DNA of 64,000 nt from Candidatus Aminicenantes bacterium (GTDB lineage: Bacteria; Acidobacteriota; Aminicenantia; UBA2199), in assembly GCA_963827565.1 (NCBI GenBank), contig CAWHBG010000003.1:124530-188529 (forward strand), given 5' to 3'. The translations under genes and the position numbers were made by a program. Positions 4,523 to 58,892 of this stretch are shown one piece after another. Positions within the stretch are counted from its first letter, which is position 1. Each line of letters begins with the position of its first letter. Under the pieces are notes generated by a model that was given only the letters and a program-made list of their open reading frames with translations, was not told the origin of the DNA and searched no databases.

Positions 4523-4530
4523 GGAAATAT

Positions 4531-6971: not shown

Positions 6972-6976
6972 ACCTT

Positions 6977-8374: not shown

Positions 8375-8404
8375 CATATGTTAATACCGTTTTAGATTAC
8401 AGTA

Positions 8405-11932: not shown

Positions 11933-11933
11933 T

Positions 11934-42142: not shown

Positions 42143-42174
42143 AAAAAAGCGGCATCAAACGATGCCGCTTTTTT
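42143..42174. terminator. Bidirectional terminator between pyrE and the cytochrome operon
   Basis: AAAAAAGCGGCATC-aaac-GATGCCGCTTTTTT, a perfect 14-bp stem between convergent genes. Confidence 0.88.
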
Positions 42175-42205: not shown

Positions 42206-44332
42206 TTAAAAACCAAGAGCCGCTATAGAATCTTTAAGGATTTTCGCAATATACGGAGCATTGTGGATGTACCCGTGAGGTTCCTTTTTAGACATCTGGA
42301 AGTTGTATGCTGCTCTTAACAGAGAGCCATTAAACTGGTAGCCATTTGCCCGATTTGCTTCCTCAGGATCAGGGATCCCATTCCCGTTAAGATCATTTAA
42401 GAAATAGGGGTAATTGTGAGCATCCCATACGATCGGAGACCCTATCCTCTTTCCATAAGCCTGGATCGCAGCATAAAGTTTATCTTCCAAACCTCTGATC
42501 TCACTTTCCATAGATTCCGTTTTATCACCGTCACCATCGTAATCAGGTATATTTGCAGGACGAATTCCGCTGAACTCGAATTTGGCAGGATCTGCACCCG
42601 GATTAGGCTGTGATACATCCTCACCATGACAATTCACACAATCTGCAGGATTAGGTTTATGTACATTATGGCCATTGTTCGGGTCTTTTCCCTTTGTTCC
42701 CATATGACATTCAACACAGGTAACAAATTTTCCGTCATGGTTCGGGAACATAGATCTTCCGGGATAAGTTTTTCCAGAGTATTCATATCCCCCCTGAACT
42801 TCACTGCCAAAATATATCGCAGCTGCAGGAAAATAGTGAATATTTGTAAACGAATAGGGTCCCGGTCCACCCGAGATCTTGCTGTCTACTGATGACTTTG
42901 AGGCTCTGCCCTGGTGGCATGCCATGCAGAGATTACTTGAATCACCGAGATCAACACTGACCCCTGATGGAAACTTAACTTCAGATAACTGATGAAGAGC
43001 AGGAGGTCCCGTGTGGCATGTTGTACAGAGCATACCATTCGCAAGTGGTTCCGGAAATTCATTCAACCCTGTTGCTGCAAATTTTGCCAGCCCTGTTGCT
43101 GAATGGCACCTTGCACAGCTAGCCTGAACTTCACCGTCACCATCCCAATGTCTCCACGCTTCAGAAGAACCATCGAAATGGCCTTCATCTGTCCTGCTCA
43201 TTTTTGACATATCAATTCCACCGGTCTTTGTATTAAGATCTGCAATGGAATCATACACAAGCTGGATAATATATTTTCCACCGTGAGCGAAACCGCCAAG
43301 ATCCTTTTTCGAGAACTGATAATTATATGCTGCCCTTGCAAGTCTCGGTGTAAACATATTGTAGGCATTTGCATAGACTGCTTCACTCTCTTCAATAGTA
43401 CCATTATCATTAGTGTCTTTGAAGAAATAAGGATAGGCTGCGGCATTATATCCGATCGTGGTCCCGACCACTTTCCTTGAATAGATGATGATCGCATTAT
43501 AGAGTTTATTCTGAAGTGTTTTCAATTCATAATAGATTCCTTCAGTTGTATTCCCGTCACCATCATAATCTACAAGAGAACCGAGATAACGAATATCATG
43601 GAGATCTTCCTTGCTTTCTATCCCGGGATGACAGGTATCACATTGTTCCGTCTTTACATGAAGTGAATGAGAATCATGACAATCGGTACATGAAGTGTAT
43701 CCTTCTACATGTCCGAATTTAGCATCATAGGTCTTGCCTGAATACTCATATCCCCCTTTCGCCAGGGTTCCGTTTAATGTGGCACCTGCAGCAGCATAGT
43801 GAACATTCCTGAACCTGACCGCGGGAGAAGGTGTATCTTCTGCTAACCCTGCATAAGAAGCATTAACCGATACAGTAGATTCCCTGCCCTGGTGACAATT
43901 CATACAGATACCTTCATTTCCAAGCGGTTCATGGGTACCATCCTCTTTAAGCGGACCTCTTATTGTAAGCCCGGAAGGGAATTTTACATTTGCATAAATC
44001 CTGGTTGTCCCATTTTCAACATCCGTATGACACACTTCACATGTGAACGAACCCGGTTCATGGTCATTTGTTACAGCACCGTTATCTGCAAACTCAATTG
44101 CACCGGCAGCACTGTGGCATTTAGCGCAGCCTGCCGGAACCAGAGCAGGATCATCCTCATTCCAATGGACAAATGCTTCAGAAACTGAATCATTATGGCC
44201 GGAATCGGCAAACAATGACTCCTGTACACTTTCGAACATTGCTTTATCCATGTTACAGGACTGCAGAATAAACAATCCTGTAATAAAAACAAAACAGATT
44301 CCGATTATTGATAAATTTTTTGTTTTATTCAT
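42206..44332 (-). CDS. Decaheme c-type lipoprotein built from two tandem pentaheme modules; putative surface terminal reductase/oxidase
   Basis: Lipobox FILQSC; 10 CxxCH (CAKCH, CEVCH, CMNCH, CTDCH, CDTCH / CARCH, CTTCH, CMACH, CVECH, CVNCH); the two halves align motif by motif. Confidence 0.85.
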   Translation of the reverse strand: MNKTKNLSIIGICFVFITGLFILQSCNMDKAMFESVQESLFADSGHNDSVSEAFVHWNEDDPALVPAGCAKCHSAAGAIEFADNGAVTNDHEPGSFTCEVCHTDVENGTTRIYANVKFPSGLTIRGPLKEDGTHEPLGNEGICMNCHQGRESTVSVNASYAGLAEDTPSPAVRFRNVHYAAAGATLNGTLAKGGYEYSGKTYDAKFGHVEGYTSCTDCHDSHSLHVKTEQCDTCHPGIESKEDLHDIRYLGSLVDYDGDGNTTEGIYYELKTLQNKLYNAIIIYSRKVVGTTIGYNAAAYPYFFKDTNDNGTIEESEAVYANAYNMFTPRLARAAYNYQFSKKDLGGFAHGGKYIIQLVYDSIADLNTKTGGIDMSKMSRTDEGHFDGSSEAWRHWDGDGEVQASCARCHSATGLAKFAATGLNEFPEPLANGMLCTTCHTGPPALHQLSEVKFPSGVSVDLGDSSNLCMACHQGRASKSSVDSKISGGPGPYSFTNIHYFPAAAIYFGSEVQGGYEYSGKTYPGRSMFPNHDGKFVTCVECHMGTKGKDPNNGHNVHKPNPADCVNCHGEDVSQPNPGADPAKFEFSGIRPANIPDYDGDGDKTESMESEIRGLEDKLYAAIQAYGKRIGSPIVWDAHNYPYFLNDLNGNGIPDPEEANRANGYQFNGSLLRAAYNFQMSKKEPHGYIHNAPYIAKILKDSIAALGF

Positions 44333-44346
44333 CTTTTTTTCCTCCG

Positions 44347-46209
44347 TTATTTCCAACTGTAACCAAAGGAAACTTCAAATATATTGGCCTTATAGTCATT
44401 GTAGCCAAAATCATTTTCCTTAAAATCAACATACCTGTAATTCAACTGACCGATAAAACCTTTTTCACAAAAATACTTGAAGAATAATTTAAGGTTGGTT
44501 CTCGTCAGTTCCCAGGATCCATTATTAATGTAATAATTAAGATAAGCACCGAGTCCAGTCTTATCACTCAGCTTTGAATAGATATAAACATCAAAAAGAT
44601 TCGAGGTTCCCTCAAAAAGAATATCCCATAAATAGGTCCCTTCACCACCAGTCCATGAAGGAGGATAATAGATTCCCCTTTCCCCTTTCCGCGTCACATC
44701 TATCAGAGCATAACCCGCTGAGAAATGGAGTTTTTTCTTATATATACCCATTCTCAGGTTCAATTGATTCTTGTCAGATTCCCACATTTCACCTGACTGA
44801 TCACTTTTAGACTTATTGAGAAGATATGAACCGCTGAAATAGAGATCCTTTTTCTTATATTTTGCAGTAAGCCTGAATCTGTGAAAATCTGTCGGTGAAA
44901 TAAGAGTCAGAGGATTATCATAAGTTCCATACTGATAATCTGCCGTAACCTTTAATTTCTTTGAAGGCTTCCAGTTAAGGTTTCCGAATAATCCCATTTT
45001 AGAAGTTGCCTCATTGTAATCTTCGATCACAACATCATCCTGAACATCTCTCTGCTCCATCCTGTATCCGAGAGTGAATCCGAATTTTGTACTTGGCTGA
45101 TACTGAAGACCTGCTTCCACGCCACCGGTCTCATATTTCAGGTCCATTAAGGTCTTAACTCCCTCAACGATCATTGAACCGGTCTGATCAAAATTATTAT
45201 AGAAAGTAGTCCCGACCAGAGCCATTTTATCACTCAGGAAATAGGTGAAGTCGAGATCATAGATCTGGGATTTTCTTGAAAAATCCCCTTTCCCGTTATA
45301 ATCATAAACAACAGGAACACCGATATGATCAGCACCCATTGCCTCTTCACTGTAGGTAAAATCCGTATTCTGATCCAGGATCTGAAGACTACCTTTCAGG
45401 AGTAATTTTCTGAACGGGTTATAAGTGAATTTTGCCGTGTGAGTATTTCCCTTCATGTTGTACGGCATATTCAGGCTGAAATAATTGAGATAAGTGGGAT
45501 ACCTGGCGAAATCTCCTCCATCAGCATATCCGGGGAGGAACATACTGTTCGCATTTTCAAAATCGATGAATTTTTCTTCAAGGACAAATGCGAAGTTTTT
45601 CCCTGCATAATCAAAGCCCAGAGTAACTTCTGTTGACATCTCATCGATAGGTTTATCAAATTCAAATTCAACTCTTCCAATATCGAGTGTATTTATGCTC
45701 ATACCCTTTTTTGTATAACTGTTAAAATCAATATAGGCATGAGATCTTTTCCCAAGCCACACTTTAAATAATCCCGAGTCGTTGATACGGTCAAATGCAA
45801 AAGTATGAAAATCATGGCCCTCAAGATGATCGTTATAAAAATATTCTGATTTTCGTCTGTCGAATTTGAACTTATACTTTCCGCTCTTCATAATATCAAG
45901 TCCCATACTTTCGAAAGGATCGCCGCCGAAGTTGTTAACGTATACATTCATATAATCAAAATATTTATTCAGCTTCCCGACCGGGGCAAAATGGATCTTA
46001 AAGTTAAAGAGCCTGAGCCCGTCCCCCAGGTTAATATCTTCTTTATACTTTGATTCAACTCCGCTTATATCAACAAATCTGTATCCGACAATGAACTTGC
46101 CGTAAAACTCATCCTCAGTTTTCTCTTCAGCATTAAGGGATACTGATGATATAAATCCGCAGAACAGGATAACCATTAAAATAGTTAAAAATGATTTATT
46201 TCTTTTCAT
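44347..46209 (-). CDS. MtrB/PioB-like outer-membrane beta-barrel porin
   Basis: Signal peptide, aromatic-rich alternating strands, C-terminal FEVSFGYSWK; lies directly after the decaheme MtrA. Confidence 0.78.
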   Translation of the reverse strand: MKRNKSFLTILMVILFCGFISSVSLNAEEKTEDEFYGKFIVGYRFVDISGVESKYKEDINLGDGLRLFNFKIHFAPVGKLNKYFDYMNVYVNNFGGDPFESMGLDIMKSGKYKFKFDRRKSEYFYNDHLEGHDFHTFAFDRINDSGLFKVWLGKRSHAYIDFNSYTKKGMSINTLDIGRVEFEFDKPIDEMSTEVTLGFDYAGKNFAFVLEEKFIDFENANSMFLPGYADGGDFARYPTYLNYFSLNMPYNMKGNTHTAKFTYNPFRKLLLKGSLQILDQNTDFTYSEEAMGADHIGVPVVYDYNGKGDFSRKSQIYDLDFTYFLSDKMALVGTTFYNNFDQTGSMIVEGVKTLMDLKYETGGVEAGLQYQPSTKFGFTLGYRMEQRDVQDDVVIEDYNEATSKMGLFGNLNWKPSKKLKVTADYQYGTYDNPLTLISPTDFHRFRLTAKYKKKDLYFSGSYLLNKSKSDQSGEMWESDKNQLNLRMGIYKKKLHFSAGYALIDVTRKGERGIYYPPSWTGGEGTYLWDILFEGTSNLFDVYIYSKLSDKTGLGAYLNYYINNGSWELTRTNLKLFFKYFCEKGFIGQLNYRYVDFKENDFGYNDYKANIFEVSFGYSWK

Positions 46210-47590: not shown

Positions 47591-48535
47591 TTATTTATTA
47601 CGTCTCGATTTTCGCAGTAAAATTTTATAGCTTCGTTTGAAAATGTTAATACTTTCTTTAATTCTGCCGTTCTTTTCCAGTATCTCCCCGGCTTTAAAAA
47701 CTGCCGGAAAAAATGAGGGTTCCAGCATGGCAAATCTTAATAAATTCGAGAGGTTCTCTTCTGAAGGATCAGCGGAGGACAGGCTCAGATAAAGACCGAA
47801 CTTCAACCTCTTTGAATCATTATTTTCCAGGGCACCCTTAAAAAGAACCACCGCATCATTTGCTTTATCCTGTTCCAGCAGAATGAATCCATATCCTAAA
47901 TGGGCTTCAATATTTTCACTATCCTTTTCAACAGCTTTTTTATACATCATTCCTGCAAGCTGGTAATTTCTATCAACTATCAGGGTGAAAGCCTGTTCTA
48001 ATACTCTGTTCTTTTTCCTTTGCACAAGTTTAATATCGGTTTCTTTATAAACATTTCCCGGCTTCTCACCCTTTTCAAGAGCGCTCAGGTGACTCGTAAA
48101 GAACATTCCGAGGTTCGGTCTGTAACTTACAATTACCGAGTTAAGGATACCCGCTTCATCAATGAAAAGGATAGAAGGCATTACCACTATTCCGAAATCA
48201 GCATAAATTTTCCTTTGAGGATCGTTCAGTTTTTTTCTGTTCCCCTTAAATTTATCAAACAGGATCAATATTCTATTATCAGTTTCAGCATTCGTATCAA
48301 CAAGTACAAAACTGATCTTTTTTACCGAATTATAAGATTTTAGAAATTGTCTTAAAAAAGCTACTGACCTGAGATCATCAGACTTCAGATACAGCAGAAC
48401 TGTTTTCCCCTGACCCTCTATAAACTTAAGTTCTTCAGTTAACGGAACTTTGTCACCTACCTTTATTTCCCTCAGCCCCTCAACATCTGCCGGGAAAATA
48501 TAAAAGGTCAGCAGGAGGGTGAGAAAGATCCTCAT
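47591..48535 (-). CDS. Exported protein with a redoxin-like N-terminal domain (no CxxC) and TPR repeats
   Basis: IKVGDKVP...IYADFGIVVMPSILFIDEAG; AGMMYKKAVEKDSENIEAHLGYGFIL. Confidence 0.65.
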   Translation of the reverse strand: MRIFLTLLLTFYIFPADVEGLREIKVGDKVPLTEELKFIEGQGKTVLLYLKSDDLRSVAFLRQFLKSYNSVKKISFVLVDTNAETDNRILILFDKFKGNRKKLNDPQRKIYADFGIVVMPSILFIDEAGILNSVIVSYRPNLGMFFTSHLSALEKGEKPGNVYKETDIKLVQRKKNRVLEQAFTLIVDRNYQLAGMMYKKAVEKDSENIEAHLGYGFILLEQDKANDAVVLFKGALENNDSKRLKFGLYLSLSSADPSEENLSNLLRFAMLEPSFFPAVFKAGEILEKNGRIKESINIFKRSYKILLRKSRRNK

Positions 48536-49818
48536 GTACCCTTCACCTTTTTATTTCTGTCATATGAATATTCTTTATGACATCCAGGTGCACAACTCCC
48601 CCCGGATTTGTTTTTCTCAAATCCGATCGGCAGGCTCCATTTTCCGAATGGAGTATCTTTTCTGATATGTTTCGGCAGATTACTGGCGTGGATCTCATGA
48701 CAGGCCCTGCAGGTCCTCCCTTTCTCTCTGTTCACATGAACATAATGGAGATTCCAGTCCCCGTCACGAAAATTTGTGAGCGCAACAGTTCTTTCTGTTT
48801 TTGCCAATTGCTTCTCATGACAATCAAAACACGAATCATATTTTCTCTCTTCATACACCGTATAGAACTCTTTGGGGAAATTACCTTTTAAAAGCATATA
48901 AAAATCAGACCCATGCGGGTTATGACATCCGCTGCAGTTCCCGTCCTTGATCGGCCCATGTTTGAATTTATTCCTGTTGACTATTTTAAAGATATTATAA
49001 TCTTCCCCATCCGTACCGATAATTTTTTTATCATGGCAGTCCAGACATAATTTTAAAGGTGAAATCCTGAGATTATTATCATAAAGCGATCCATGAGCAT
49101 CATGGCAGTTGTAGCATTTTTTAGCTTCATTGACGACCTTATGCTTGAACTTTGCAATATCCACTTTATCAGTTATCTTCTTATGACACTCATTGCAGAG
49201 CTTTTCTCTGTCTGCTATAAGCTGATATTTGTGATCGGATGAGTGGGAACTGTGGCACTTCTGACACCCCTCTTTCATCGGTGTGTGCATCTTTTGATCG
49301 GCCCCCGAATAATCTTTATCCGAGTGACATCTGGTGCAGATGACCTTTAGCGGTTCTACCAGTAAAAATTTGTTATCTGAACTATGCGACTCATGGCACA
49401 ATGAACAATTTCCTGAAGCATTGGGGCCATGGACAAACTTTTTTCTCATGGCATCAGAATCATGACAATCAAAGCATACAGTGTCTATCCTCTTCTGTTT
49501 TAAAAATGCTTTATTATCGCCACCATGAGAAAAATGGCAGTCGGTACAGTCTCCGGAAGATATTGGTTCATGAACATTTTTCTTTGTTGTCTGATCATCA
49601 TGACACTCGTTGCAGTGATCATTTATATTTGGGATCTTTTTAAATTTGTGATCGCCGGTTTTCTCATGGCAGGTAAGGCAATCATCCTCGACAGGTGCAT
49701 GGATAACCTTATAACCTTTCATGTTTTTGTGACATTCTGAAGTCACACAGCTCTTTTCAGCCCCATTCATAAATGCAAAAACAAACAGCATAGCTAATAA
49801 TGCGATAAAAATTTTCAT
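48532..49818 (-). CDS. Periplasmic multiheme cytochrome c, 15 heme motifs
   Basis: 13 CxxCH plus CVTSECH and CAPGCH; repeated H-x-P...CxxCHxxHxS...LCxxCH units. Confidence 0.9.
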   Translation of the reverse strand: MKIFIALLAMLFVFAFMNGAEKSCVTSECHKNMKGYKVIHAPVEDDCLTCHEKTGDHKFKKIPNINDHCNECHDDQTTKKNVHEPISSGDCTDCHFSHGGDNKAFLKQKRIDTVCFDCHDSDAMRKKFVHGPNASGNCSLCHESHSSDNKFLLVEPLKVICTRCHSDKDYSGADQKMHTPMKEGCQKCHSSHSSDHKYQLIADREKLCNECHKKITDKVDIAKFKHKVVNEAKKCYNCHDAHGSLYDNNLRISPLKLCLDCHDKKIIGTDGEDYNIFKIVNRNKFKHGPIKDGNCSGCHNPHGSDFYMLLKGNFPKEFYTVYEERKYDSCFDCHEKQLAKTERTVALTNFRDGDWNLHYVHVNREKGRTCRACHEIHASNLPKHIRKDTPFGKWSLPIGFEKNKSGGSCAPGCHKEYSYDRNKKVKGT

Positions 49819-49828
49819 CTAACTCCTC

Positions 49829-51508
49829 CTATTTTTCATATTCTTTCGGAGAGTGGTCATCTCCATGGCATTGCAGATAGCAATAACCTTTATTACCGAT
49901 AACATTAAATTTTAAATCTCCATTTAAGTTCGGAAAAACAGCGCTTGTATCAAAATTGATCAATCCCGGATTCCTCTGGGAGCCATGCGGATCGTGACAG
50001 ACGGAACATGGCGTGTTCTGTTCATCCACATGTTTTTTATGATATTTAAAAGTAGAAAAGTTCTCGCTCATTACCACCTCGGGCCGGTGACATTTCCAGC
50101 ACAGGTCATAGTTCGATTGCTGATAGATCATCGACGGAGCAACAATATACTTTCTCTCCAGAATATATTCGTGAATTGAACCGTGAGGTCCATTAGGCCC
50201 CACACCTCCATTCATTGTTGAGTTATTTGAATTGTGGCAGTCAGTACAATACATTCTTGATGAATTATTCCACCCTGTCCTCAAAGATGGAACAAAATTG
50301 CCACTACCTTGAGAGGCGACAGGATGATAACTTGGGTTAGAAGGTTGAAAAGCTACCCGCAAGTCCGGATTCTGGTTCAACCTCACCCGGTCGGAAATGA
50401 CATACCTCTCCTGCCCATGACACTTTAAACAGACCTCATATTCATACTGTGCTTCAGGTACAATTGTTCCTCCTAAGGTCATACCGGTTGATCCCTTTAA
50501 CCTCCCATTCAGGAAAGGTGGAGAAGACGATGATGAGTTCAATTTATGTGGATCGTGACAATCCACACATTGGGTATGTACAGAAGATGTCAGAATATTC
50601 TCGGCAGGGTCATGAATATTGTTAAAATTCTCCACATTATGGGAAAAGTTCTTTTCGACCTCACTTTTTATATCTGAGCCGGTAGTTCCATTATGGCATA
50701 CCAGACACACCTGACTATCAGCTCTTTCACTGAGCAGCCTTTCGTTACCGCCCGCGTTATGGGGATGATGGCAATTCTGGCAGGAGTTTTCAACTACTGT
50801 ATTATAACCGGAATGCGGCCATGGATTCTTCCCCGATTTATTCCAGGAAGTGGTTGAGATATCATGAGTGGAGATATTATTGTAACCGGGTAGGTCATGA
50901 CAGGTCTTGCACAATTCCCCATTAACAACACTGCTTACCAGGAATTTAGGGAAAAAATCTTCGTGGGGATCGTGGCAGGTTGTACACTGAATTTTCCCGG
51001 ATCCATCATAGCTGACTGGATCTCCGGGTCTGGGATGCACCAAATCAGCCCTGATTGAAACAGCAATCGAGCTATCAAAAGAGATCGGATGATCATCTGA
51101 AATATCCCTCCCCAGGTTGGTTTTTCTATTCCGGGGAATCCTGCCACCATCTGAATTTTTGACAGAAAGATTTTTTGGGCCTTTCAATATCTGCCCCATG
51201 GCAATATTGCCATCGTGACATGAAAGACATAGTTTTGAAGCCCCATCGGGCTGACCCAGTTTAGAATACAATGTTGAACTATCGTAAAGTGTATATTCTA
51301 CATTAGATTCTTTTCTATTCCATAGTGGCCCGTTATCAGATGACAGAACATGCGAAGTATGACAGAAGATACAGATCTGATTTGTTCCGGTAGTATTTAT
51401 CTCCCCCATACCGGAAACAGAGAGATTATGTCTTGAATGAACAATGTTTTTTGAGCCCACATTAAAAACGATCAACATTAAAATGATATATATAAAAAAT
51501 TTCTTCAT
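49829..51508 (-). CDS. Multiheme cytochrome c, 12 heme motifs, with an N-terminal OmcE-like tetraheme module
   Basis: 11 CxxCH plus CYLQCH; the N-terminal ~200 aa parallel 56249..56866. Confidence 0.88.
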   Translation of the reverse strand: MKKFFIYIILMLIVFNVGSKNIVHSRHNLSVSGMGEINTTGTNQICIFCHTSHVLSSDNGPLWNRKESNVEYTLYDSSTLYSKLGQPDGASKLCLSCHDGNIAMGQILKGPKNLSVKNSDGGRIPRNRKTNLGRDISDDHPISFDSSIAVSIRADLVHPRPGDPVSYDGSGKIQCTTCHDPHEDFFPKFLVSSVVNGELCKTCHDLPGYNNISTHDISTTSWNKSGKNPWPHSGYNTVVENSCQNCHHPHNAGGNERLLSERADSQVCLVCHNGTTGSDIKSEVEKNFSHNVENFNNIHDPAENILTSSVHTQCVDCHDPHKLNSSSSSPPFLNGRLKGSTGMTLGGTIVPEAQYEYEVCLKCHGQERYVISDRVRLNQNPDLRVAFQPSNPSYHPVASQGSGNFVPSLRTGWNNSSRMYCTDCHNSNNSTMNGGVGPNGPHGSIHEYILERKYIVAPSMIYQQSNYDLCWKCHRPEVVMSENFSTFKYHKKHVDEQNTPCSVCHDPHGSQRNPGLINFDTSAVFPNLNGDLKFNVIGNKGYCYLQCHGDDHSPKEYEK

Positions 51509-52443
51509 TTTTCACCTTTCACAACTTTGTAGATCTGCAGTCGATTATTATATGTATCTGCAATATAAATAAGATCATTTTGATCAATCGATAATCCGGA
51601 CGGCATCCAGAACTCTCCATCACTACTTCCAGGTCCGCCGAAATATGACAAAAACCTTCCTTGAATATTAAAAACCTGGACATTGTCAAAAATAACATCT
51701 GTCACAAAGATCCTCTTTTTACTATCAACAGCAATGCCCTTTGGCTGTGAAAACTCTCCACCGTTTTTCCCTTTTTTCCCGAACATCCTTCTAAACTTTC
51801 CCTTATGATCAAAAATCTGAACCCTGAAATTAAGAGCATCATTAACATAGATATTATCATTATCCACAGTCAGGTGTGTCGGGAAATTGAATTCCCCCTC
51901 GCTTATACCACGCTTTCCAAATTCAACAAGAATTTTCCCGTCTTCAGAGATAACAAGCACTTTATGATTCTTAGTATCTGTACAAAATACTTTTTTATCA
52001 AAACAAAAGATACCTGTTATTCTTCTAGAGGGATCGGAAATCAGAAAATTCTTAAATTTAAAACTACTTGAAAATCTGGCTATTAAACGGAGTTGTGAAT
52101 CTGAAATATAAAATCCCCCTTCCATATCAGAACTTCCGCAAACAGGGGATTGGAGATTCATTTTATTTATTCTACCAATCTTCTTTATAATTTGCCCTTT
52201 TCTGTTCAATATAATAATTTTTCCGTATATCTGATCTGTAACCCCAAGGTAATTATCATTAATAAAAAAAACTGATGCTGGTTTCACCGAATAATTAATC
52301 TTTTTCCCGAACAAAACTTTAGTTAATTTCTTGTTTTTTTTCACAGATCCAATTTCAATTGAACTAACAAATTTTATTGATTCAGAAAAACCAAATGCAA
52401 AAAATATCAGGATCAGAAGTAGCAGCAAGAAATATTTTTTCAA
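51505..52443 (-). CDS. NHL-repeat beta-propeller protein
   Basis: GKRGISEGEFNFPTHL, GKKGKNGGEFSQPKGIAVDS, GGPGSSDGEFWMPSGL, ADTYNNRLQ. Confidence 0.9.
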   Translation of the reverse strand: MKKYFLLLLLILIFFAFGFSESIKFVSSIEIGSVKKNKKLTKVLFGKKINYSVKPASVFFINDNYLGVTDQIYGKIIILNRKGQIIKKIGRINKMNLQSPVCGSSDMEGGFYISDSQLRLIARFSSSFKFKNFLISDPSRRITGIFCFDKKVFCTDTKNHKVLVISEDGKILVEFGKRGISEGEFNFPTHLTVDNDNIYVNDALNFRVQIFDHKGKFRRMFGKKGKNGGEFSQPKGIAVDSKKRIFVTDVIFDNVQVFNIQGRFLSYFGGPGSSDGEFWMPSGLSIDQNDLIYIADTYNNRLQIYKVVKGEK

Positions 52444-54395
52444 AAGATTCTCCTCAGTCTTAAAGCAAAATAATTTCTATTCCTTTGAGAATCGCTATAT
52501 TTATTTAAAATATATTCATAAAATAACTCAAGAATTATATTTCTGAAACTCCACTGAAATTTCGAAATCATACTATCTCTATCACGGAAATATGATTCAG
52601 TTTTATAATTAATGTGCCTGTAAATAACATTTAGATACATAGACGAAACAGGCTTGAAATTAATTGAACCATAATATGTGTCAAAATCTACAGAATATCC
52701 TGAAGTTTCATATTTAAGTCTGTTTATACTTGTATTGCCGGTTATTTTTATTTTATTTGTTATATTAAATCCTAAGGAGAGTCTTAAATTCCTCGAGAGA
52801 TATTTCGAAATATCCGAATTGTACTTCTCCAGATAATACTCACCATTAAAATTCCCCGAAGCAAATTTTATCCCGTAAAGACTCGTTGAGAAACTCTGGA
52901 AAGGTGAAACAATATAATCTGATGAAATATCATGATTTAGAGAGTTTAACTTAAAATATAAATAAAAATATTTAATAAAATTCATTTGTATATTCAGCTG
53001 ATTAGTCACACTTGTAAATTTATAATCAGGGAATGAAAGAAGTTCATATGAAATATGAACTCTCCCTCCCGGCGGTATTGCTCCTCCGGGAATTCTGAAA
53101 ATAGTTACCATAGACTCAAAAACCTCCACCTGATAATCTATCCCCTCCATGTATAAATAAGTAAAGTTGTTATCTGTGATATTAATACTGTCAGAACGGA
53201 CTCCAATGGTATTTAAAATAATTGAATCTGATATAGAGAAATTAATTGATTCGGAGACATACGACGAATCACTTTTTGAATTATAAGACCCGTTCTCCGC
53301 ATTATTCATATATATAATATTTATACTGCCGGATGGAATCTTTTTTCTGTACCTGAATTCTAAACCGTAAGAAAATGCTTTCAACTTTTGAAGAGTATAG
53401 CTTTCAAACCTTCCTCCCGAATTGATTTTTGTTTCAAGACTGTCAAATAGTCGATGATTAATTGAAAGTGAAATCAAATGTTTATCTCCTGTCCGGCCGG
53501 CATTATCGCTTTTTGTATATTTGTAAGAATTCAGGAAATAAAGATTGTTTTTCAAATAATGTTTTTGATAAATATCACCCCTGAACAATTCCTGATTTAT
53601 ATCACCGTCCATATTCCTGAATGAGAATAGAGCAAATACTGAATTATTCTTTTCTTTCCCATAAAACTTGCGGTAATCTGACATTATATTAAGGGATTTA
53701 TATTTTACATCAAAAATTCTTTCACTATAATCCCGTGCTTTAACTCTGACTATAGAAGTTCCTCCGGTCAGTTTTGACATATCGGTTTTTAGTTCTATGT
53801 TGTCAGTCAGTTCATCCCTTTCCATATAAGAAATAGATTCCGATTTAAAAATATTCCTGTAAACATCAATTTTAAAGGGTATTATCTTATTTGATGAAGC
53901 AAGTTTAAATCCGTATTTATTTGAATAGAGGAAAAACCTCTCTGAGAACCTTCTGTCAGCAGCTGCATAATCTTTTCGGGCATATAGCTCTAAATTTGTT
54001 GTTTTTCTTTTAAGGAACAATAAATTTATATTGTAATTATTGTTCAATGAATTATTTAAAGATTCATCTGAAAAAAAAATCGATTTTGTTTTATTTGCAA
54101 TTAAATTCAGATCAACATTGAACGTGAGTAAATTAGGATGGTATACACTCCCGTTAAAATTTAACGTTAAGCCGCCCTCAAGATAATTTCTGTTGACTTT
54201 GGAGAACAGATTATTGAAACTGGAATCTTCCTCAATGGTTTTTTGAAACTGAAAAACCAGAGCACCGCTTAAATCATTTAGAACAAAAAATTTGGAGCCT
54301 GAACCAGATCCGTTTAACACTCCTTCGGGATATAAATTTTGGCTGAATATAATTAATAGAGCACAAAAAATTATTATAAAACTTCTATTCTTCAA
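52440..54395 (-). CDS. Outer-membrane beta-barrel (porin-like) of the cytochrome operon
   Basis: Signal peptide, aromatic alternating strands, C-terminal YFALRLRRIF. Start set at TTG 54395, just past the upstream stop. Confidence 0.7.
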   Translation of the reverse strand: MKNRSFIIIFCALLIIFSQNLYPEGVLNGSGSGSKFFVLNDLSGALVFQFQKTIEEDSSFNNLFSKVNRNYLEGGLTLNFNGSVYHPNLLTFNVDLNLIANKTKSIFFSDESLNNSLNNNYNINLLFLKRKTTNLELYARKDYAAADRRFSERFFLYSNKYGFKLASSNKIIPFKIDVYRNIFKSESISYMERDELTDNIELKTDMSKLTGGTSIVRVKARDYSERIFDVKYKSLNIMSDYRKFYGKEKNNSVFALFSFRNMDGDINQELFRGDIYQKHYLKNNLYFLNSYKYTKSDNAGRTGDKHLISLSINHRLFDSLETKINSGGRFESYTLQKLKAFSYGLEFRYRKKIPSGSINIIYMNNAENGSYNSKSDSSYVSESINFSISDSIILNTIGVRSDSINITDNNFTYLYMEGIDYQVEVFESMVTIFRIPGGAIPPGGRVHISYELLSFPDYKFTSVTNQLNIQMNFIKYFYLYFKLNSLNHDISSDYIVSPFQSFSTSLYGIKFASGNFNGEYYLEKYNSDISKYLSRNLRLSLGFNITNKIKITGNTSINRLKYETSGYSVDFDTYYGSINFKPVSSMYLNVIYRHINYKTESYFRDRDSMISKFQWSFRNIILELFYEYILNKYSDSQRNRNYFALRLRRIF

Positions 54396-54396
54396 C

Positions 54397-55020
54397 TTAC
54401 TCAGCACCTTTTTTGCCTTGATTAAGATCAGACCTTTGTTTGTCACTTTGTTTATTAAGAAGAATATCAATATTACTTTCTTTCAGAAAAAATTTATTAC
54501 CGGAAACATGGGGCTCATGACAATCGAGACAATTATCGCCTTTGCAGGGTAGTACCTGGTTGGCAACAGGTGTCCTGTGGCATAGGTCACATAACTTCCT
54601 CCCCTCTTCCAGTAAAAGCTTCCTATGTTTTGATCTGTGTGGATCATGACAAACATTGCAGGCTTTTACTGCAACCGGCCCATGAACAAATCTTCCGGAA
54701 AATTTCTCCTTTTTATGGCATGTAAAACAAATTTCTTTCCGATCCGTTTTCAGGAAATTTGAAATAGTCCTGGAATGACATTTTGAACACTCTTTTGATT
54801 TGTAATACGGATGAATTGATTTAATTTGAACCATATTTTTCCTTCTGATCAATACATTTTCATTTTTTTTTATTTGAGGATTTTGAGTTTCCACTTTTCT
54901 GGAAGGAACCCCATCAAAAAAGACGGACAATAAATTTTTATTCTTTTCTACATTACATGAAATTATAAGCAGAAATGGTAATATAAAAAGCAAAATCAAT
55001 GATCTATTTTGTTTTTTCAT
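54397..55020 (-). CDS. Pentaheme c-type lipoprotein
   Basis: Lipobox LLIISC; CSKCH, CFTCH, CNVCH, CDLCH, CLDCH. Confidence 0.88.
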   Translation of the reverse strand: MKKQNRSLILLFILPFLLIISCNVEKNKNLLSVFFDGVPSRKVETQNPQIKKNENVLIRRKNMVQIKSIHPYYKSKECSKCHSRTISNFLKTDRKEICFTCHKKEKFSGRFVHGPVAVKACNVCHDPHRSKHRKLLLEEGRKLCDLCHRTPVANQVLPCKGDNCLDCHEPHVSGNKFFLKESNIDILLNKQSDKQRSDLNQGKKGAE

Positions 55021-56095
55021 ACTTTCCAAAAGCATATACATTAACTTTGTTTTGACCAAATTGAGATGTTACAAACAGCAGATATTCAGCTTTAAAATCA
55101 GGGGATATATATTTTTTAAAATATTTTATATTATCATAATCCAGACATATTGCAGCTGGCAGAACCACATTGTGCCTTTCAGTTCCTCGACCCAGCATAA
55201 AAAGCAATAATTTATGTTCTTTATTGAATATTTGAACATTCTCAAAAGCAGAATCCACCACTAATATTCTTCCATCTTTATCAACAGCAATTCCTTTAGG
55301 CCTTGTAAAATCTCCCGGCCTTTGTCCTATTTGTCCAAAACTGGATATATGTTTTCCGCTAATATCAAATATATTAACTCTGAAGTTTGTTGTATCTGAA
55401 ATGTATATTTTATCTTTAAAAATATCAAGATTTGACGGGTGATACAATTCATCTTCATTATGTCCGATAGACCCTATCCTTTTTTCGATCTCTCCTGTAC
55501 TTTTATTAATAACTAAAACCTGGTGACTCTTCAGATCTGTAATATAAATTTTACCTTGATAGATCAGAATATCTGCAGGGACATATTCATCTGTTTTTCC
55601 AAAAACAGTTTTTACTTTCCCTTCCAGATCAAAAACAACGATCTGTTTCCTCTGGGTATCTGTAACATATAAAAGACGGTCATCTTTATCAATAAATAAA
55701 TTTACAGGTTTTTTTAATCTGCCTGAACCGGTTACTCCCATATATCCAAAAGTCCTTTTTTTAAGGTTCATTACAATAACAGCATTTGATCTCAGGTCAC
55801 AGACATAGATCACTCCTTCAAAAATCCCTACCCCATAAGGTTTTTTTATAGGTAGAACTTTTAACTCTTTTTCCCCCGCTACAAATTTAAAAAGTGAGCT
55901 TTTCTGCTTAATATCACTTGAATCAGAAAAAGTTGTTAAATATTGGAAACGGGGTGTGTTAGGAAGGGGGGGATAAAATATAAAATCTTTTTCTGGTTCT
56001 ATCTGGGGACGTTTGACTCCACACCCCACAAATAATATCAATATTCCAAAGCATATAATAAATAATTTCAAACCTATTTGCTGTTTCAAGTTCAA
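55004..56095 (-). CDS. NHL-repeat beta-propeller lipoprotein
   Basis: Lipobox LFVGC; YPPLPNTPR; GQIGQRPGDFTRPKGIAVDKDGRILVVDSAFENVQIF. Confidence 0.88.
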   Translation of the reverse strand: MNLKQQIGLKLFIICFGILILFVGCGVKRPQIEPEKDFIFYPPLPNTPRFQYLTTFSDSSDIKQKSSLFKFVAGEKELKVLPIKKPYGVGIFEGVIYVCDLRSNAVIVMNLKKRTFGYMGVTGSGRLKKPVNLFIDKDDRLLYVTDTQRKQIVVFDLEGKVKTVFGKTDEYVPADILIYQGKIYITDLKSHQVLVINKSTGEIEKRIGSIGHNEDELYHPSNLDIFKDKIYISDTTNFRVNIFDISGKHISSFGQIGQRPGDFTRPKGIAVDKDGRILVVDSAFENVQIFNKEHKLLLFMLGRGTERHNVVLPAAICLDYDNIKYFKKYISPDFKAEYLLFVTSQFGQNKVNVYAFGKYEKTK

Positions 56096-56196
56096 ATCTC
56101 CTTAATACTTGTTATTATAGCTTATAAAAAATATAGCAAAAGCAAATCCAAAAGAAAACTATATAGGTAATACACATAAATTTTTTTAAATTTTAT

Positions 56197-56226
56197 AAAA
56201 AAAAACCCCTCCTGAGAGGGGTTTTT
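56197..56226 (-). terminator. Rho-independent terminator directly after the OmcE-like gene
   Basis: AAAAACCCCTC-ctga-GAGGGGTTTTT (56201-56226) with a T9 run on the minus strand. Confidence 0.85.
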
Positions 56227-56248
56227 ATTTGGTTTCAGCCCTTAAATT

Positions 56249-56866
56249 TTATTTGTCGTGACAGGTCAGACAGAGAGCACTATTTGCATTAGATTTGATC
56301 AGAAGATGGCCTGTAGGTCCAAGATCATTTCCATCATGAACATCATGACATGAAGCACATTCTAGGCTGTTTGAAAATAACATATCAGCTGCTATTGTAC
56401 CACCCAAACCTGAATTGGCTACTGAAGGATTATGAAGTTCCCCATCCGCAGTTGCAAGTGCAGTCGTATAATCAAATGAGATCGGATGATCATTGCTGAG
56501 ATCAGTGCCAAAAAGAGCACCACCGGTAATATTTTCAGTACCAGTTGCACCTCCAAAACTATCCAGAGCAACAGATCCGTCATGGCAACTCAGACAAAGA
56601 AGAGATACACCGGTAGGGGCCGTTGGTACAGCGTTCATAGTTCCGCCGGAAGGATATAAGGTGTAAGTAGATGTTGAGACTTCATGGTTCCATAAAGGTG
56701 CACCTGATACTGATGCATCACCGTTATGAGGCGTGTGGCATGGCAGACATATTTCCCCATTTGTGGTCCATGATTCGGCTGAGAAATCATGGCCGGTACC
56801 GGAAATTGCACTATAAACAAAAGCTGCCACAGCAAGTGAAAGTAAAATAAACAAGGCTTTTTTCAT
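56249..56866 (-). CDS. OmcE-like secreted tetraheme cytochrome c (candidate nanowire subunit)
   Basis: Signal peptide; GHDFS, EICLPCHTPHN, PLWN, YTLY, SLLCLSCHDG, GTDLSNDHP, LECASCHDVH, ALCLTCHDK-stop. Motif order matches G. sulfurreducens OmcE as recalled. AAGGAG RBS before ATG 56866. Confidence 0.82.
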   Translation of the reverse strand: MKKALFILLSLAVAAFVYSAISGTGHDFSAESWTTNGEICLPCHTPHNGDASVSGAPLWNHEVSTSTYTLYPSGGTMNAVPTAPTGVSLLCLSCHDGSVALDSFGGATGTENITGGALFGTDLSNDHPISFDYTTALATADGELHNPSVANSGLGGTIAADMLFSNSLECASCHDVHDGNDLGPTGHLLIKSNANSALCLTCHDK

Positions 56867-56893
56867 AAATAACTCCTTTACATTTAGTTTTAT

Positions 56894-56948
56894 ATGACAT
56901 TCCCATGACATACAGAAATAATATAGTCTGTATACTTAACCATGTCAA
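56894..56948 (-). promoter_or_regulatory. Sigma70 promoter plus shared operator for the OmcE-like operon
   Basis: -35 TTGACA (56943-48), 17 nt, -10 TATATT (56920-25); operator GTCATG-GGA-ATGTCAT (56894-56909). Confidence 0.75.
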
Positions 56949-57071
56949 TTTCATAAAGGTTTATTTTTAGTTTGATTTATTTTTTTTTATTATGCAACTT
57001 TAGTTGCAAAAACAAATATAATTATGGTAATACTATATAGGAAAACAATAGAAATTCAGCGAGGAAACCTT

Positions 57072-57821
57072 ATGACAAATAATTCTAAAAACATTCTGAG
57101 AGCAGTTAGTTTCATAGTAGCCTTATCTCTTATCCTTACTTTCGCAATTGGAACCCAAACCGTCAATGAGAAGAAAGAGGTTAAAATACACAAGGGAAAG
57201 TTGGTACAAAAGTTCAAGTCTGGCGGTTATACCTACCTCGAGTATGAATCTGAAGGGAAAAAACATTGGGCTGCATCTAAAATGGTCGTGGCAAATGTCG
57301 GTAATATAATTGAATTCAGAGATCCGTTGGTAATGAAAGATTTTTATTCCAAAACACTTAAAAAGAAATTTGAACTGATATATTTCGCCGGGCTTGTCAG
57401 GGCTTCAGGGGAGTCAGGCCAGTTCCCCATGAGATCGATGCAGAACATGCAGGGGCACAAAAAGATGAACACCGATAAAAAAGTGATAGTTGTTAAGCCC
57501 GGTTCCGTAAAAAAAGCAGATGACGGAATTACTATCGCCGAGTGCTTCAAAAACAGTAAGAATATTGAAGGGGAAGATATAACAATAAGGGCAATAGTAG
57601 TAAAAGTTTCCATGAAAATAAAAGGGAGAAATTGGGTGCATATCCGTGACGGAAGCGGGGAGAATGGGAGAAACGATATAACCTTTACTACTAAGGAGAC
57701 ACTCTCTCCCGGGGACCTAGTCGTGGTCAAAGGTAAATTAATTCTTAACAAAGATATCGGTTCCGGATATCTTTTCCCGGTATTCATGGAAGATCCGGAA
57801 ATAACAAAGGAGAACAAATAG
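57072..57821 (+). CDS. Exported protein with two OB-fold-like domains
   Basis: Signal peptide; SGGYTYLEY...WAA...DFYSKTL and VVKVS..IKGRNWVHIRDGSG...GD.VVVKG. Confidence 0.6.
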   Translation: MTNNSKNILRAVSFIVALSLILTFAIGTQTVNEKKEVKIHKGKLVQKFKSGGYTYLEYESEGKKHWAASKMVVANVGNIIEFRDPLVMKDFYSKTLKKKFELIYFAGLVRASGESGQFPMRSMQNMQGHKKMNTDKKVIVVKPGSVKKADDGITIAECFKNSKNIEGEDITIRAIVVKVSMKIKGRNWVHIRDGSGENGRNDITFTTKETLSPGDLVVVKGKLILNKDIGSGYLFPVFMEDPEITKENK

Positions 57822-58892
57822 TTGTCTCAAAAGAACATATCGACAATTCTTGTTATTGATAACATACTGAAAGGGCTGAGTGCATTTATCCCGCTTCTCA
57901 GAAATGATGAAGTGAAATTTCTCATCACTATTGATCCCGATGAGGCTCTGTCAATAATCAAAACTACCAATGTTGATGTTGTACTCATCTGCTCACACTT
58001 AGAAAAAAAAAGCGGTATGGTGACAGGAGAAACCATTATGGAAATGTCACCCGGCACCCGGGTCATCTTATTTACCGAATACCCCTCATTCGAGACTGCG
58101 ATCGAGGCCACTAAAAAGGGTTTCTTTTATTTCCTGGAAAAATCGACACCGATCGAAATAATAAGGGAAAAAGTTGCCGAGGCGATCCGGTGCGGTACCT
58201 CTTCAGGTAGCAAGCTGGCAGAACAAAAACAGAAAACCTGTTTAAGGTTCATTACCATCTGCAAACATTCACTCATAATTGATCAGATAAAGTTGATCTC
58301 AGATGAAAATATCTGCCTTGATTATTCCCGCAATTTCGATTCAATTATAGAAATTAGCAGGGCTGAATTCCATAAAGAAACCGATCTTGCGATGGTGTGC
58401 GCATCCTGCAGCTTTACAGATCTGGAAGCATCAATAATATCGATAAAACAATTGTACACACTTTTTCCTTTTATCAAGATAATAATTTTTAATGAAAATT
58501 ATACAGATACGGAAAAGGCAAAATTACTGAAATTGGGTGTAAAAGGTTTATTCGGAAGCGAGATGACATCAGCATTGATCCAGAAAGCCCTTCTGGTGAT
58601 CAGGGATGGCGGAATCTGGGCGGAAAGAAAAATACTTAATCTTGCTATTGAACCGGACATTGCCCAGATAAGTAAAATGCTTTCAGATTACAACGATTCC
58701 TACAACCTCTCCCTCAGGGAGAAGGAAATTCTACAGACATTGGTTCTCGGGATCAGGAACAAGGATATTGCGGACCGTCTCTACATTAGTGAAAAAACAG
58801 TTAAAACACACATAAACAGAATATTTAAAAAACTTGGCGTTGACTCCAGGGTAAAAGCGATCCTCAAGGCAAAAGAGGAAAAACTGGTCTGA
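57822..58892 (+). CDS. Atypical regulator: two receiver-like domains + LuxR HTH
   Basis: ILVIDN...DVVLIC...RVILFT...YFLEK; second domain DLAMVC...GVKGLF; LSLREKEILQTLVLGIRNKDIADRLYISEKTVKTHINRIFKKLGV. Confidence 0.85.
   Translation: MSQKNISTILVIDNILKGLSAFIPLLRNDEVKFLITIDPDEALSIIKTTNVDVVLICSHLEKKSGMVTGETIMEMSPGTRVILFTEYPSFETAIEATKKGFFYFLEKSTPIEIIREKVAEAIRCGTSSGSKLAEQKQKTCLRFITICKHSLIIDQIKLISDENICLDYSRNFDSIIEISRAEFHKETDLAMVCASCSFTDLEASIISIKQLYTLFPFIKIIIFNENYTDTEKAKLLKLGVKGLFGSEMTSALIQKALLVIRDGGIWAERKILNLAIEPDIAQISKMLSDYNDSYNLSLREKEILQTLVLGIRNKDIADRLYISEKTVKTHINRIFKKLGVDSRVKAILKAKEEKLV

What the first reader, a model, noticed from the sequence alone, without database searches (positions are those of the whole stretch)
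56197..56866. OmcE-like tetraheme with its own terminator: the expression logic of a filament subunit
Seen: a 205-aa secreted, non-lipidated, Gly/Ser/Thr/Ala-rich tetraheme that ends two residues after the last CxxCH. It is the first gene of the operon, has a strong RBS, and is followed within ~25 nt by a strong hairpin with a T9 run before the accessory genes. Known: G. sulfurreducens OmcE polymerises into conductive filaments and, as recalled, has the same motif series (HDxS, ICxxCHTPHN, PLWN, LY, SLxCxSCHDG, GTDLSNDHP, LECxSCHxVH, LCLxCH). Inference: the terminator gives a large excess of subunit over downstream assembly proteins, as expected for a polymer.
Basis: partly seen in the sequence, partly recalled or inferred. 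Interest (0 to 1): 0.86.

Follow-up and report, generated by a model that had tools for sequence, protein, structure and literature searches.

The report
OmcE-type nanowire subunit gene with terminator
This gene encodes a secreted four-heme protein of the OmcE family, whose known members build electrically conductive filaments, in an uncultured Acidobacteriota/Aminicenantes-like bacterium. A transcription terminator right behind it, also found in most relatives across many phyla, probably lets the cell make far more subunit than helper proteins.

Summary
The gene at 56252-56866 (-) encodes a 205-aa secreted tetraheme. It has a strong ribosome-binding site and a near-consensus promoter. An 11-bp-stem, T9 intrinsic terminator starts 22 nt after the stop.

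The protein is a true OmcE homologue:
- It is 40% and 39% identical over its full length to the two OmcE filaments with solved structures (7TFS, 9YUQ).
- All eight heme-ligand histidines are kept.
- OmcE (7TFS) is the only PDB fold match (TM 0.66).
- It sits in the canonical OmcE-type cluster of two NHL propellers, multiheme cytochromes and a large barrel.

It belongs to a very large, uncharacterised sister clade found in at least 577 species genomes of more than ten phyla. This clade is marked by a ninth conserved histidine (PLWNH).

A terminator-like hairpin follows the subunit gene in 49 of 75 related loci, against about 5% in controls, and every stem sequence is different. In 26 of 45 loci there are at most 45 nt before the next gene, so the accessory genes must be transcribed by read-through.

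Polymerisation, inter-subunit histidine ligation and the RNA drop could not be tested. The run finder was closed and no multimer modelling was on hand. Verdict: a new member of a known kind, with a familiar filament-subunit expression logic.

The parts
56920..56948 (-). Sigma-70-type promoter TTGACA-17 nt-TATATT of the tetraheme gene
   Evidence: 11 of 12 matches. It is conserved in relative L084.
56867..56919 (-). 5' UTR with RBS AAGGAG (56873-56878), 6 nt before the ATG. It contains the GTCATG-N3-ATGTCAT repeat.
   Evidence: It is nearly identical in L084, although the proteins are only 70% identical.
56252..56866 (-). OmcE-family tetraheme cytochrome, 205 aa. The signal peptide is about residues 1-19. 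CxxCH motifs lie at nt 56735-56749, 56582-56596, 56345-56359 and 56258-56272. Distal His candidates are H26, H47, H127 and H177, plus a clade-specific H61.
56197..56226 (-). Intrinsic terminator: 11-bp stem, UCAG loop, nine T in a row
   Evidence: Equivalent hairpins with different stems occur in L084 and L086 and in 49 of 75 related loci.
56090..56196 (-). 107-nt spacer with a perfect -10 hexamer TATAAT (56114-56119) but no good -35, then RBS AAGGAG (56103-56108). A weak internal promoter is possible.
   Evidence: Read. No promoter-like site was reported here.
55007..56089 (-). NHL-repeat six-bladed beta-propeller lipoprotein (lipobox LFVGC) with a TTG start. It is the accessory gene directly after the terminator.
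   Evidence: It is syntenic in 71 junctions of related loci.
54400..55059 (-). Pentaheme lipoprotein cytochrome (doubled-CxxCH family). The start is uncertain, probably 55020.
52443..54470 (-). Large (about 650-676 aa) protein with no Pfam or NCBIfam match and a C-terminal Phe. It is the presumed outer-membrane beta-barrel of the cluster.
   Evidence: Its position is conserved in related loci. The barrel fold itself was not tested here.
51508..52443 (-). Second NHL beta-propeller protein
49832..51508 (-). Its first ~205 residues are a complete OmcE-like module.
   Evidence: 41% id, E = 5e-24; 34% id over residues 1-205, E = 9e-28. It pairs with NHL2 in 43 related junctions.
47594..49818 (-). 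They end the co-oriented unit.

Best explanation
The gene encodes the major subunit of an OmcE-type extracellular cytochrome filament ('nanowire').

Proposed path of the protein (inferred from the family, not tested here): the precursor is exported by Sec, cleaved by signal peptidase I, and loaded with four bis-His c-type hemes. It is then passed to the outer-membrane machinery encoded downstream: two NHL beta-propellers, a pentaheme lipoprotein, a ~650-aa barrel and larger multiheme cytochromes. Outside the cell, subunits stack head to tail into one continuous heme chain. By analogy with OmcE, one heme at each interface is completed by a histidine from the neighbouring subunit. My candidate is H26, about seven residues from the mature N-terminus.

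Expression logic: a strong promoter, a consensus Shine-Dalgarno sequence and an ATG drive the subunit gene. An intrinsic terminator 22 nt after its stop ends most transcripts there. Only read-through transcripts, and in this lineage possibly a weak internal promoter, reach the accessory genes. The first accessory gene also starts with the weak codon TTG. The subunit is therefore made in large excess over the assembly and anchoring proteins, as a polymer of thousands of subunits per machine needs.

Shown here: homology, ligand conservation, fold, synteny, the terminator structure, and its conservation across phyla.

Inferred: polymerisation, which His is shared between subunits, the actual RNA ratio, and the direction of electron flow.
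For: Identity:
- Full-length phmmer hits to both solved OmcE filaments, at 40% and 39% identity. Those two share 41% with each other (PMC13712944).
- H26, 44, 47, 95, 127, 174, 177 and 203 are invariant or nearly so in 127 relatives.
- The AF2 model from 127 sequences has pLDDT 89.8 and pTM 0.82, with about 16% helix and the rest mostly coil, as reported for OmcE.
- Foldseek against the PDB returns only 7TFS, with E = 4.4e-11 and TM 0.66/0.67.
- The cluster matches the parts list that Petersen et al. 2026 use to define nanowire-competent OmcE loci. It is syntenic in 80 loci from more than ten phyla.

Terminator:
- The structure is canonical.
- The median gap between the tetraheme gene and the NHL gene is 88 nt. 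Other junctions are -4 to 11 nt.
- A hairpin plus T-tail (dG <= -10) follows the tetraheme gene in 49 of 75 junctions, against 13 of 225 dinucleotide shuffles and 10 of 222 coding controls.
- All 49 stems differ in sequence, and the stems of the closest relatives differ from the window's.
- In 26 of 45 loci at most 45 nt lie between the T-tract and the NHL start codon. That is too short for a promoter plus leader, so transcripts for the accessory genes must pass through the terminator.
- Such compact terminators are rare in the window.
Against: - There is no RNA evidence.
- No multimer or heme-containing model could be made, so inter-subunit ligation is untested.
- The window's terminator looks very strong (perfect stem, U9). 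It is followed by 107 nt with a perfect -10 box, so here the accessory genes may depend on their own weak promoter rather than on leak-through.
- The terminator is absent or not detected in about a third of related loci, mostly those with high GC.
- Terminators in loci without room for a promoter are not significantly weaker (p = 0.11-0.31).
- Codon adaptation of the subunit gene is unremarkable. It sits at the 76th percentile in a genome with very weak bias.
- The clade keeps a ninth His (H61) where the proven filaments have Arg. Petersen et al. argue that a nine-His, four-heme OmcE-like protein could be self-satisfied and non-polymerising.
Confidence: 0.68

Rival explanations
1. Two separate transcription units. 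The terminator is a full stop, and the accessory genes are driven by their own promoter in the 107-nt spacer. Subunit and machinery would then be regulated independently rather than coupled by attenuation.
For: The terminator has a perfect 11-bp stem and U9. The spacer holds TATAAT at 56114-56119. Close relative L086 has TTGACT-18-TATAAG after its terminator. In 19 of 45 related loci more than 45 nt follow the terminator.
Against: No -35 box better than 3 of 6 matches lies at a usable spacing in the window, and one search reported no promoter-like site there. In 26 of 45 relatives there is no room for any promoter. The outcome, subunit far above accessory proteins, would be the same.
Confidence: 0.22
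2. The tetraheme does not polymerise. It would be a soluble or surface-bound electron carrier, or a self-capped nine-His form, that merely shares ancestry with OmcE.
For: H61 is a ninth conserved His (120 of 127 sequences), where both proven filaments have Arg. The clade is sister to classical OmcE, not nested within it. No filament from this clade has been seen.
Against: The N-terminal ligand His H26 is invariant in 127 of 127 sequences although H61 exists. Identity to OmcE equals that between the two proven filaments. Fold and cluster are the same. R to H at a site next to hemes is a conservative change for a propionate partner.
Confidence: 0.1
3. The hairpin acts mainly as a 3' stabiliser of a processed monocistronic mRNA, as in the pap pilus operon, rather than as a terminator.
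For: A stable 3' stem-loop protects against exonucleases. The expected outcome, excess subunit mRNA, is the same. The sequence data cannot separate the two roles.
Against: The hairpin is followed by a canonical U-tract in the window and in most relatives. Stabilisation alone does not need a U-tract.
Confidence: 0.07

Closest known systems
OmcE of Geobacter sulfurreducens (GSU0618; cryo-EM filament, PDB 7TFS)
   Same: Secreted protein of about 200 aa with four CxxCH motifs and four further ligand His in the same order. It is 40% identical over the full length and is the only PDB fold match (TM 0.66). It is mostly coil. Its gene lies next to beta-propeller lipoproteins, multiheme cytochromes and a large barrel.
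   Different: Arg instead of His at PLWN(R/H)61. It has longer loops (232-aa precursor), some glycosylated. In Geobacter the cluster is followed by many glycosylation genes, and none are seen here. The host is in Desulfuromonadia, not Acidobacteriota. In my tree it falls in the sister clade.
OmcE of Desulfuromonas soudanensis WTL (bundled antiparallel nanowires, PDB 9YUQ; Petersen et al., mBio 2026, PMC13712944)
   Same: Best PDB sequence hit (E = 4e-27, 39% identity). [quoted passage not shown]
   Different: Its bundling loops are not conserved. It has Arg at position 61. The authors report no OmcE-like second protein in its operon, whereas the window's cluster encodes a 12-heme cytochrome with an OmcE-like N-terminal module.
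uet cluster of 'Candidatus Tenderia electrophaga' (UetA tetraheme, UetC barrel, UetH/I NHL proteins, UetJ undecaheme; bioRxiv 10.1101/2022.05.06.490989)
   Same: The parts list is the same and a tetraheme gene comes first. The gamma- and betaproteobacterial loci in my survey have the order tetraheme, NHL, barrel, NHL, 11/12-heme.
   Different: The uet cluster also holds triheme c7 cytochromes, a cupredoxin and a PPIase, and is proposed to take electrons up from a cathode. Homology between UetA and the window's protein was not tested here because I did not hold that sequence.
Major-subunit expression in other surface polymers (papA/fimA of chaperone-usher pili, type IV pilin pilA, flagellin)
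   Same: The major subunit gene is first or stand-alone and is followed by a hairpin or terminator, so that subunit mRNA greatly exceeds accessory mRNA. This rests on textbook knowledge and was not tested here.
   Different: The proteins and secretion routes are unrelated. Here the polymer is a heme wire, and the assembly route (porin-like barrel plus NHL propellers) is unknown.

Membership tests
OmcE-family cytochrome nanowire subunit | Secreted protein of about 200-230 aa with exactly four CxxCH motifs | tested here: met
   205 aa, four motifs, SPI-type signal and no lipobox.
OmcE-family cytochrome nanowire subunit | Four additional conserved His that give bis-His ligation of all four hemes | tested here: met
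   H26, H47, H127 and H177 align with the His of 7TFS and 9YUQ. They are kept in 125-127 of 127 relatives.
OmcE-family cytochrome nanowire subunit | Significant full-length sequence similarity to experimentally proven OmcE filaments | tested here: met
   E = 3.1e-26 (7TFS) and 4.2e-27 (9YUQ), at 40% and 39% identity.
OmcE-family cytochrome nanowire subunit | The OmcE fold: mostly coil wrapped round a linear heme stack | tested here: met
   The AF2 model has pLDDT 89.8. 7TFS is the only Foldseek PDB hit, with E = 4.4e-11, TM 0.66 and rmsd 4.1 A. The model contains no hemes.
OmcE-family cytochrome nanowire subunit | Gene cluster with a large outer-membrane barrel, beta-propeller lipoprotein(s) and multiheme cytochromes (the criterion of Petersen et al. 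2026) | tested here: met
   Synteny holds in 80 loci. The barrel fold of the 676-aa protein is assumed, not shown.
OmcE-family cytochrome nanowire subunit | One heme per interface is ligated by a His of the adjacent subunit | not testable with these tools
   No multimer or heme-aware prediction was on hand, and model coordinates are not returned. H26 near the mature N-terminus is my candidate by inference only.
OmcE-family cytochrome nanowire subunit | Forms extracellular micrometre-long conductive filaments | not testable with these tools
   This needs cryo-EM and conductivity measurements on a cultured carrier or a heterologous host.
Intrinsic (Rho-independent) terminator acting as an intra-operon attenuator | GC-rich stem-loop directly followed by a U-tract, downstream of a stop codon | tested here: met
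   11-bp stem, 4-nt loop, U9, dG -16 to -18 kcal/mol.
Intrinsic (Rho-independent) terminator acting as an intra-operon attenuator | Kept at the same junction in relatives beyond what sequence inheritance explains | tested here: met
   49 of 75 junctions against about 5% in controls, with 49 distinct stem sequences. The stems of L084 and L086 differ from the window's.
Intrinsic (Rho-independent) terminator acting as an intra-operon attenuator | Downstream genes depend on read-through (no separate promoter) | tested here: inconclusive
   This holds by geometry in 26 of 45 relatives, which have at most 45 nt after the terminator. In the window 107 nt with a -10-like TATAAT leave room for a weak promoter.
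Intrinsic (Rho-independent) terminator acting as an intra-operon attenuator | A step-down of RNA coverage at the terminator in vivo | not testable with these tools

The most novel reading that the evidence does not exclude
The window's protein represents a distinct, very widespread OmcE sister family with the PLWNH motif and nine conserved His. It occurs in at least 577 species genomes of Bacteroidota, Ignavibacteriota, Calditrichota, Acidobacteriota, Gemmatimonadota, KSB1, Sumerlaeota, Verrucomicrobiota, Proteobacteria and others. In this reading its filaments grow on a dedicated base or 'socket' subunit: the in-cluster 12-heme cytochrome, whose N-terminal OmcE-like module co-polymerises with the free subunits while its eight extra hemes wire the filament to the barrel. 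The leaky terminator would set the ratio of subunit to socket, and so the filament length. Cytochrome nanowires would then be a mainstream trait of the FCB group and Acidobacteriota, testable in cultured flavobacteria such as Aestuariivivens marinum.
Probability: 0.3. Interest if true: 0.75.

Novelty: new member of a known kind. Interest (0 to 1): 0.5.

Why it matters
Only two OmcE filaments have been solved, both from Desulfuromonadia. The latest survey lists homologues in five phyla. This locus and its relatives extend a complete, syntenic OmcE-type cluster to Acidobacteriota/Aminicenantes and to much of the FCB group, including at least one cultured isolate.

The conserved terminator behind the subunit gene is a simple, testable rule for telling the polymerising subunit apart from the many other small multiheme cytochromes in metagenomes. 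It also hints at how cells balance a very costly polymer against its assembly machine.

Two features bear directly on open questions raised by Petersen et al. 2026 about how filaments start, stop and anchor: the clade-specific ninth histidine, and the OmcE-like module fused to a 12-heme cytochrome in the same cluster.

Tried and rejected
- AF2 with a shallow alignment of 25 sequences gave an unusable model (pLDDT 45.6). A 127-sequence alignment that included paralogues fixed this.
- The original OmcE paper (Wang et al. 2022) is not held. I could therefore not look up which His is shared between subunits.
- I tested whether terminators in loci with no room for a promoter are weaker (fewer U, weaker stems). 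The trend is in the expected direction but not significant (p = 0.14, 0.31, 0.11).
- The codon adaptation index against 31 ribosomal-protein/EF genes of the same genome was uninformative. Bias is very weak (r-protein median 0.727, genome median 0.691). The subunit gene sits at the 76th percentile and the NHL gene at the 94th.
- An Rfam scan of 55900-57200 gave only sub-threshold hits to sRNA and leader models over the terminator stem-loop. There is no riboswitch or leader.
- Literature searches for omcE transcription units or terminators found nothing relevant.
- I rejected a chance hairpin (controls). I also rejected a terminator serving a convergent gene, because there is none: the next gene is co-oriented.

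Full report
**1. What is there**

On the minus strand, an ORF runs from ATG 56866 to a TAA stop at 56249-56251 and encodes 205 aa. A longer reading from 56911 is unlikely. The homologues all start at the MKK of 56866, and that ATG has AAGGAG 6 nt upstream.

The protein has a signal-peptidase-I type leader and no Cys before C40, so it is not a lipoprotein. It has four CxxCH motifs and ends two residues after the last one. The mature part is 43% G+S+T+A.

A TTGACA-17-TATATT promoter lies at 56948-56920, the best minus-strand match in 6.4 kb. The upstream gene is divergent, so this is the first gene of the unit.

Twenty-two nt after the stop lies AAAAACCCCTC-TCAG-GAGGGGTTTTT followed by TTTT (56226-56197). 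It has an 11-bp perfect stem and nine T in a row, with dG of -16 to -18 kcal/mol. A scan of the whole 64-kb window with the same rule finds only about four such compact terminators. At least one of the others (42146-42171) lies at an operon end, between convergent genes.

**2. What the protein is**

- **Sequence.** phmmer against all PDB chains gives two real hits, both over the full length. One is 9YUQ (E = 4e-27), which has the name, length (218 aa) and 16 chains expected of the bundled OmcE filament of Desulfuromonas soudanensis WTL. That filament was described by Petersen et al. 2026 (PMC13712944). I matched the entry to the paper on these grounds. I did not see the PDB code in the parts of the paper that I read. 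The other hit is 7TFS, the Geobacter sulfurreducens OmcE filament (E = 3e-26). BLASTP identity is 39% and 40%. The two proven filaments share 41% with each other.
- **Ligands.** Petersen et al. define the family by the four CxxCH motifs plus four further His that ligate the hemes. Here these are H26 (HDFS), H47 (TPH), H127 (NDHP) and H177 (DVH). With the four proximal His, they are kept in 125-127 of 127 aligned relatives.
- **Fold.** An AF2 model from a shallow alignment failed (pLDDT 45.6). One from 127 sequences is confident (pLDDT 89.8, pTM 0.82). It is mostly coil with about 16% helix, like OmcE. Foldseek against the PDB returns a single hit, 7TFS (E = 4.4e-11, TM 0.66/0.67, rmsd 4.1 A). 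The Foldseek copy of the PDB ends in April 2026 and did not return 9YUQ.

**3. The neighbourhood**

Downstream and co-oriented lie these genes:

| Gene | Window coordinates |
|---|---|
| NHL six-bladed propeller lipoprotein | 55007-56089 |
| Pentaheme lipoprotein | 54400-55059 |
| 676-aa protein, no family match, C-terminal Phe (presumed outer-membrane barrel) | 52443-54470 |
| Second NHL propeller | 51508-52443 |
| 12-heme cytochrome | 49832-51508 |
| 15-heme cytochrome | 48535-49818 |
| TPR protein | 47594-48535 |

One search counted 11 and 13 CxxCH motifs, and I did not check the non-canonical sites.

[quoted passage not shown] The same list, with a tetraheme first, was described as the uet cluster of 'Ca. 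Tenderia electrophaga'. I could not test that homology directly.

**4. How widespread it is**

- A search of 5.8 billion proteins was saturated: 7399 hits among the 8000 candidates scored. The top hits are 56-68% identical and are named from Acidobacteriota, Aminicenantes, Verrucomicrobiota, Calditrichota, Bacteroidota, Chlorobi/Ignavibacteria, Hydrogenedentes, KSB1, Dadabacteria and Gemmatimonadota.
One is a cultured flavobacterium, Aestuariivivens marinum MT3-5-12.
- In the 80 loci kept, the order tetraheme, NHL, 5/9-heme, barrel, 8-25-heme is nearly universal. An NHL plus 11/12-heme pair lies upstream or downstream of it.
- The window's own genome is 3.3 Mb in 5 contigs and about 90% complete. 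It has a single free copy of the tetraheme gene.
- Its Prs protein is closest to MAGs labelled Acidobacteriota (84%) and Aminicenantes (73%). Relative L084 (GCA_039714475.1) shares the whole neighbourhood.
- In a midpoint-rooted FastTree the two proven OmcE group together (support 0.86). They sit outside the 126 free tetra- and pentahemes of this clade. The window's protein therefore belongs to a sister subfamily.
- A marker of that subfamily is PLWNH. H61 is kept in 120 of 127 sequences, where both proven filaments have Arg.
- Petersen et al. list homologues in five phyla only. I found no open paper that describes the clade in the FCB group or Acidobacteriota.

**5. The terminator as a family trait**

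- In the related loci the gap between the tetraheme gene and the NHL gene has a median of 88 nt. All other junctions of the cluster have medians of -4 to 11 nt.
- With one fixed rule (hairpin with dG <= -10 kcal/mol directly followed by a T-rich tail), 49 of 75 junctions after a four-heme gene carry a terminator. The controls give 13 of 225 dinucleotide shuffles and 10 of 222 same-length coding stretches from the same loci.
- The hairpins start a median of 32 nt after the stop.
- All 49 stems differ in sequence. The closest relatives L084 and L086 have different stems at the same place. The structure is being maintained, not merely inherited.
- The rate is 34 of 45 loci at GC <= 45% and 6 of 14 above 55%.
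- In 26 of 45 loci with a terminator, at most 45 nt lie between the T-tract and the NHL start codon, often 18-35 nt. A promoter plus leader does not fit there. Transcripts for the accessory genes must pass through the terminator, which makes it an attenuator by construction.
- In the window the spacer is 107 nt. It holds a perfect TATAAT (56114-56119) without a usable -35. A weak internal promoter may add to, or replace, leak-through in this lineage.
- Either way, subunit mRNA should far exceed accessory mRNA. The NHL gene also starts with TTG, here and in L084.

**6. What could not be shown**

- **Inter-subunit His ligation.** Literature held here confirms that OmcE shares one His between subunits. 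It does not say which one, and the original paper is not held. No multimer modelling was on hand. My assignment of H26, about 7 residues from the predicted mature N-terminus, is an inference.
- **Two supporting ideas gave nothing.** Terminator strength does not differ significantly between loci with short and long spacers. Codon adaptation is uninformative in this weakly biased genome.

**7. Open points**

The ninth conserved His matters because Petersen et al. argue that an OmcE-like protein with nine His and four hemes would be a self-satisfied 'anchor'. H26 is nevertheless invariant, and R to H is a conservative change for a propionate partner, so I give the non-polymerising reading about 10%.

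The same authors state that no OmcE-like second protein is encoded in the OmcE operons they studied. Here the 12-heme cytochrome begins with a complete OmcE-like module. That module keeps Arg at position 61. In the tree it groups with classical OmcE (support 0.70). Its NHL + 12-heme gene pair recurs in 43 related junctions. That makes it a candidate filament base or cap.

**8. Verdict**

This is a genuine OmcE-family subunit gene in a complete OmcE-type cluster, from an uncultured Acidobacteriota/Aminicenantes-like genome. The expression layout (strong promoter and RBS, then a terminator before the accessory genes) is real and conserved across phyla. It matches the familiar logic of major subunits of other surface polymers. 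It is a new member of a known kind. The wider points of interest are the size and phylogenetic reach of this sister clade, its ninth His, and the fused OmcE-like module in the same cluster.

Noticed in passing
window 49832-51508 (-): The 12-heme cytochrome starts with a complete OmcE-like module. It is 34% identical to residues 1-205 of the tetraheme (E = 9e-28), keeps all eight ligand His, and has Arg at the PLWN(R/H) position. The NHL + 12-heme pair recurs in 43 related junctions. In a tree the modules group with the two solved OmcE (support 0.70). It is a candidate filament base or cap. Petersen et al. 2026 say no such protein is encoded in the operons they studied.
   Followed up: partly
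window 56684-56686 (-), codon of H61: A ninth conserved His (PLWNH, 120 of 127 relatives) sits where both solved OmcE filaments have Arg. Its role is unknown. It could be a propionate partner or an alternative ligand of the interface heme.
   Followed up: partly
window 56993-57008: The perfect palindrome TGCAACTAAAGTTGCA lies about 45 nt upstream of the -35 box, between the divergent genes. It is kept in L084 and, degenerate, in L086. It is a candidate binding site for a regulator, and a LuxR-type response regulator gene lies at 57822-58889 (+).
   Followed up: partly
window 56867-56919 (-): The 5' UTR with GTCATG-N3-ATGTCAT is almost identical in L084, although the encoded proteins are only 70% identical and the terminator stems differ. 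This suggests a conserved operator or leader function.
   Followed up: partly
L072 (NZ_JAKMCR010000002.1, Aestuariivivens marinum MT3-5-12), 2986-12817: A cultured marine flavobacterium carries the whole cluster: NHL, 11/12-heme, tetraheme, terminator, NHL, 9-heme, barrel, 10-heme. It could serve as an experimental system for this family.
   Followed up: no
L005, L007, L009, L029, L042, L055, L061 (ends of the clusters): Many related clusters end with an extra OmcE-like paralogue that has five CxxCH motifs. This is the 'five-heme OmcE-like' group that Petersen et al. 2026 propose as a possible new nanowire family. The window has none.
   Followed up: no
own genome G000:C1:321532-323623 and 325805-326426: fusA and rplD each read as two overlapping ORFs in different frames. 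This suggests single-base indel errors in the assembly, or less likely real frameshifts. The tetraheme ORF itself is intact and collinear with its homologues.
   Followed up: no
window 42146-42171: A bidirectional terminator (AAAGCGGCATC...GATGCCGCTTT, dG about -17 kcal/mol on both strands) lies between the convergent genes 41593-42126 (+) and 42206-44356 (-). It marks the end of the second cytochrome/porin unit.
   Followed up: no
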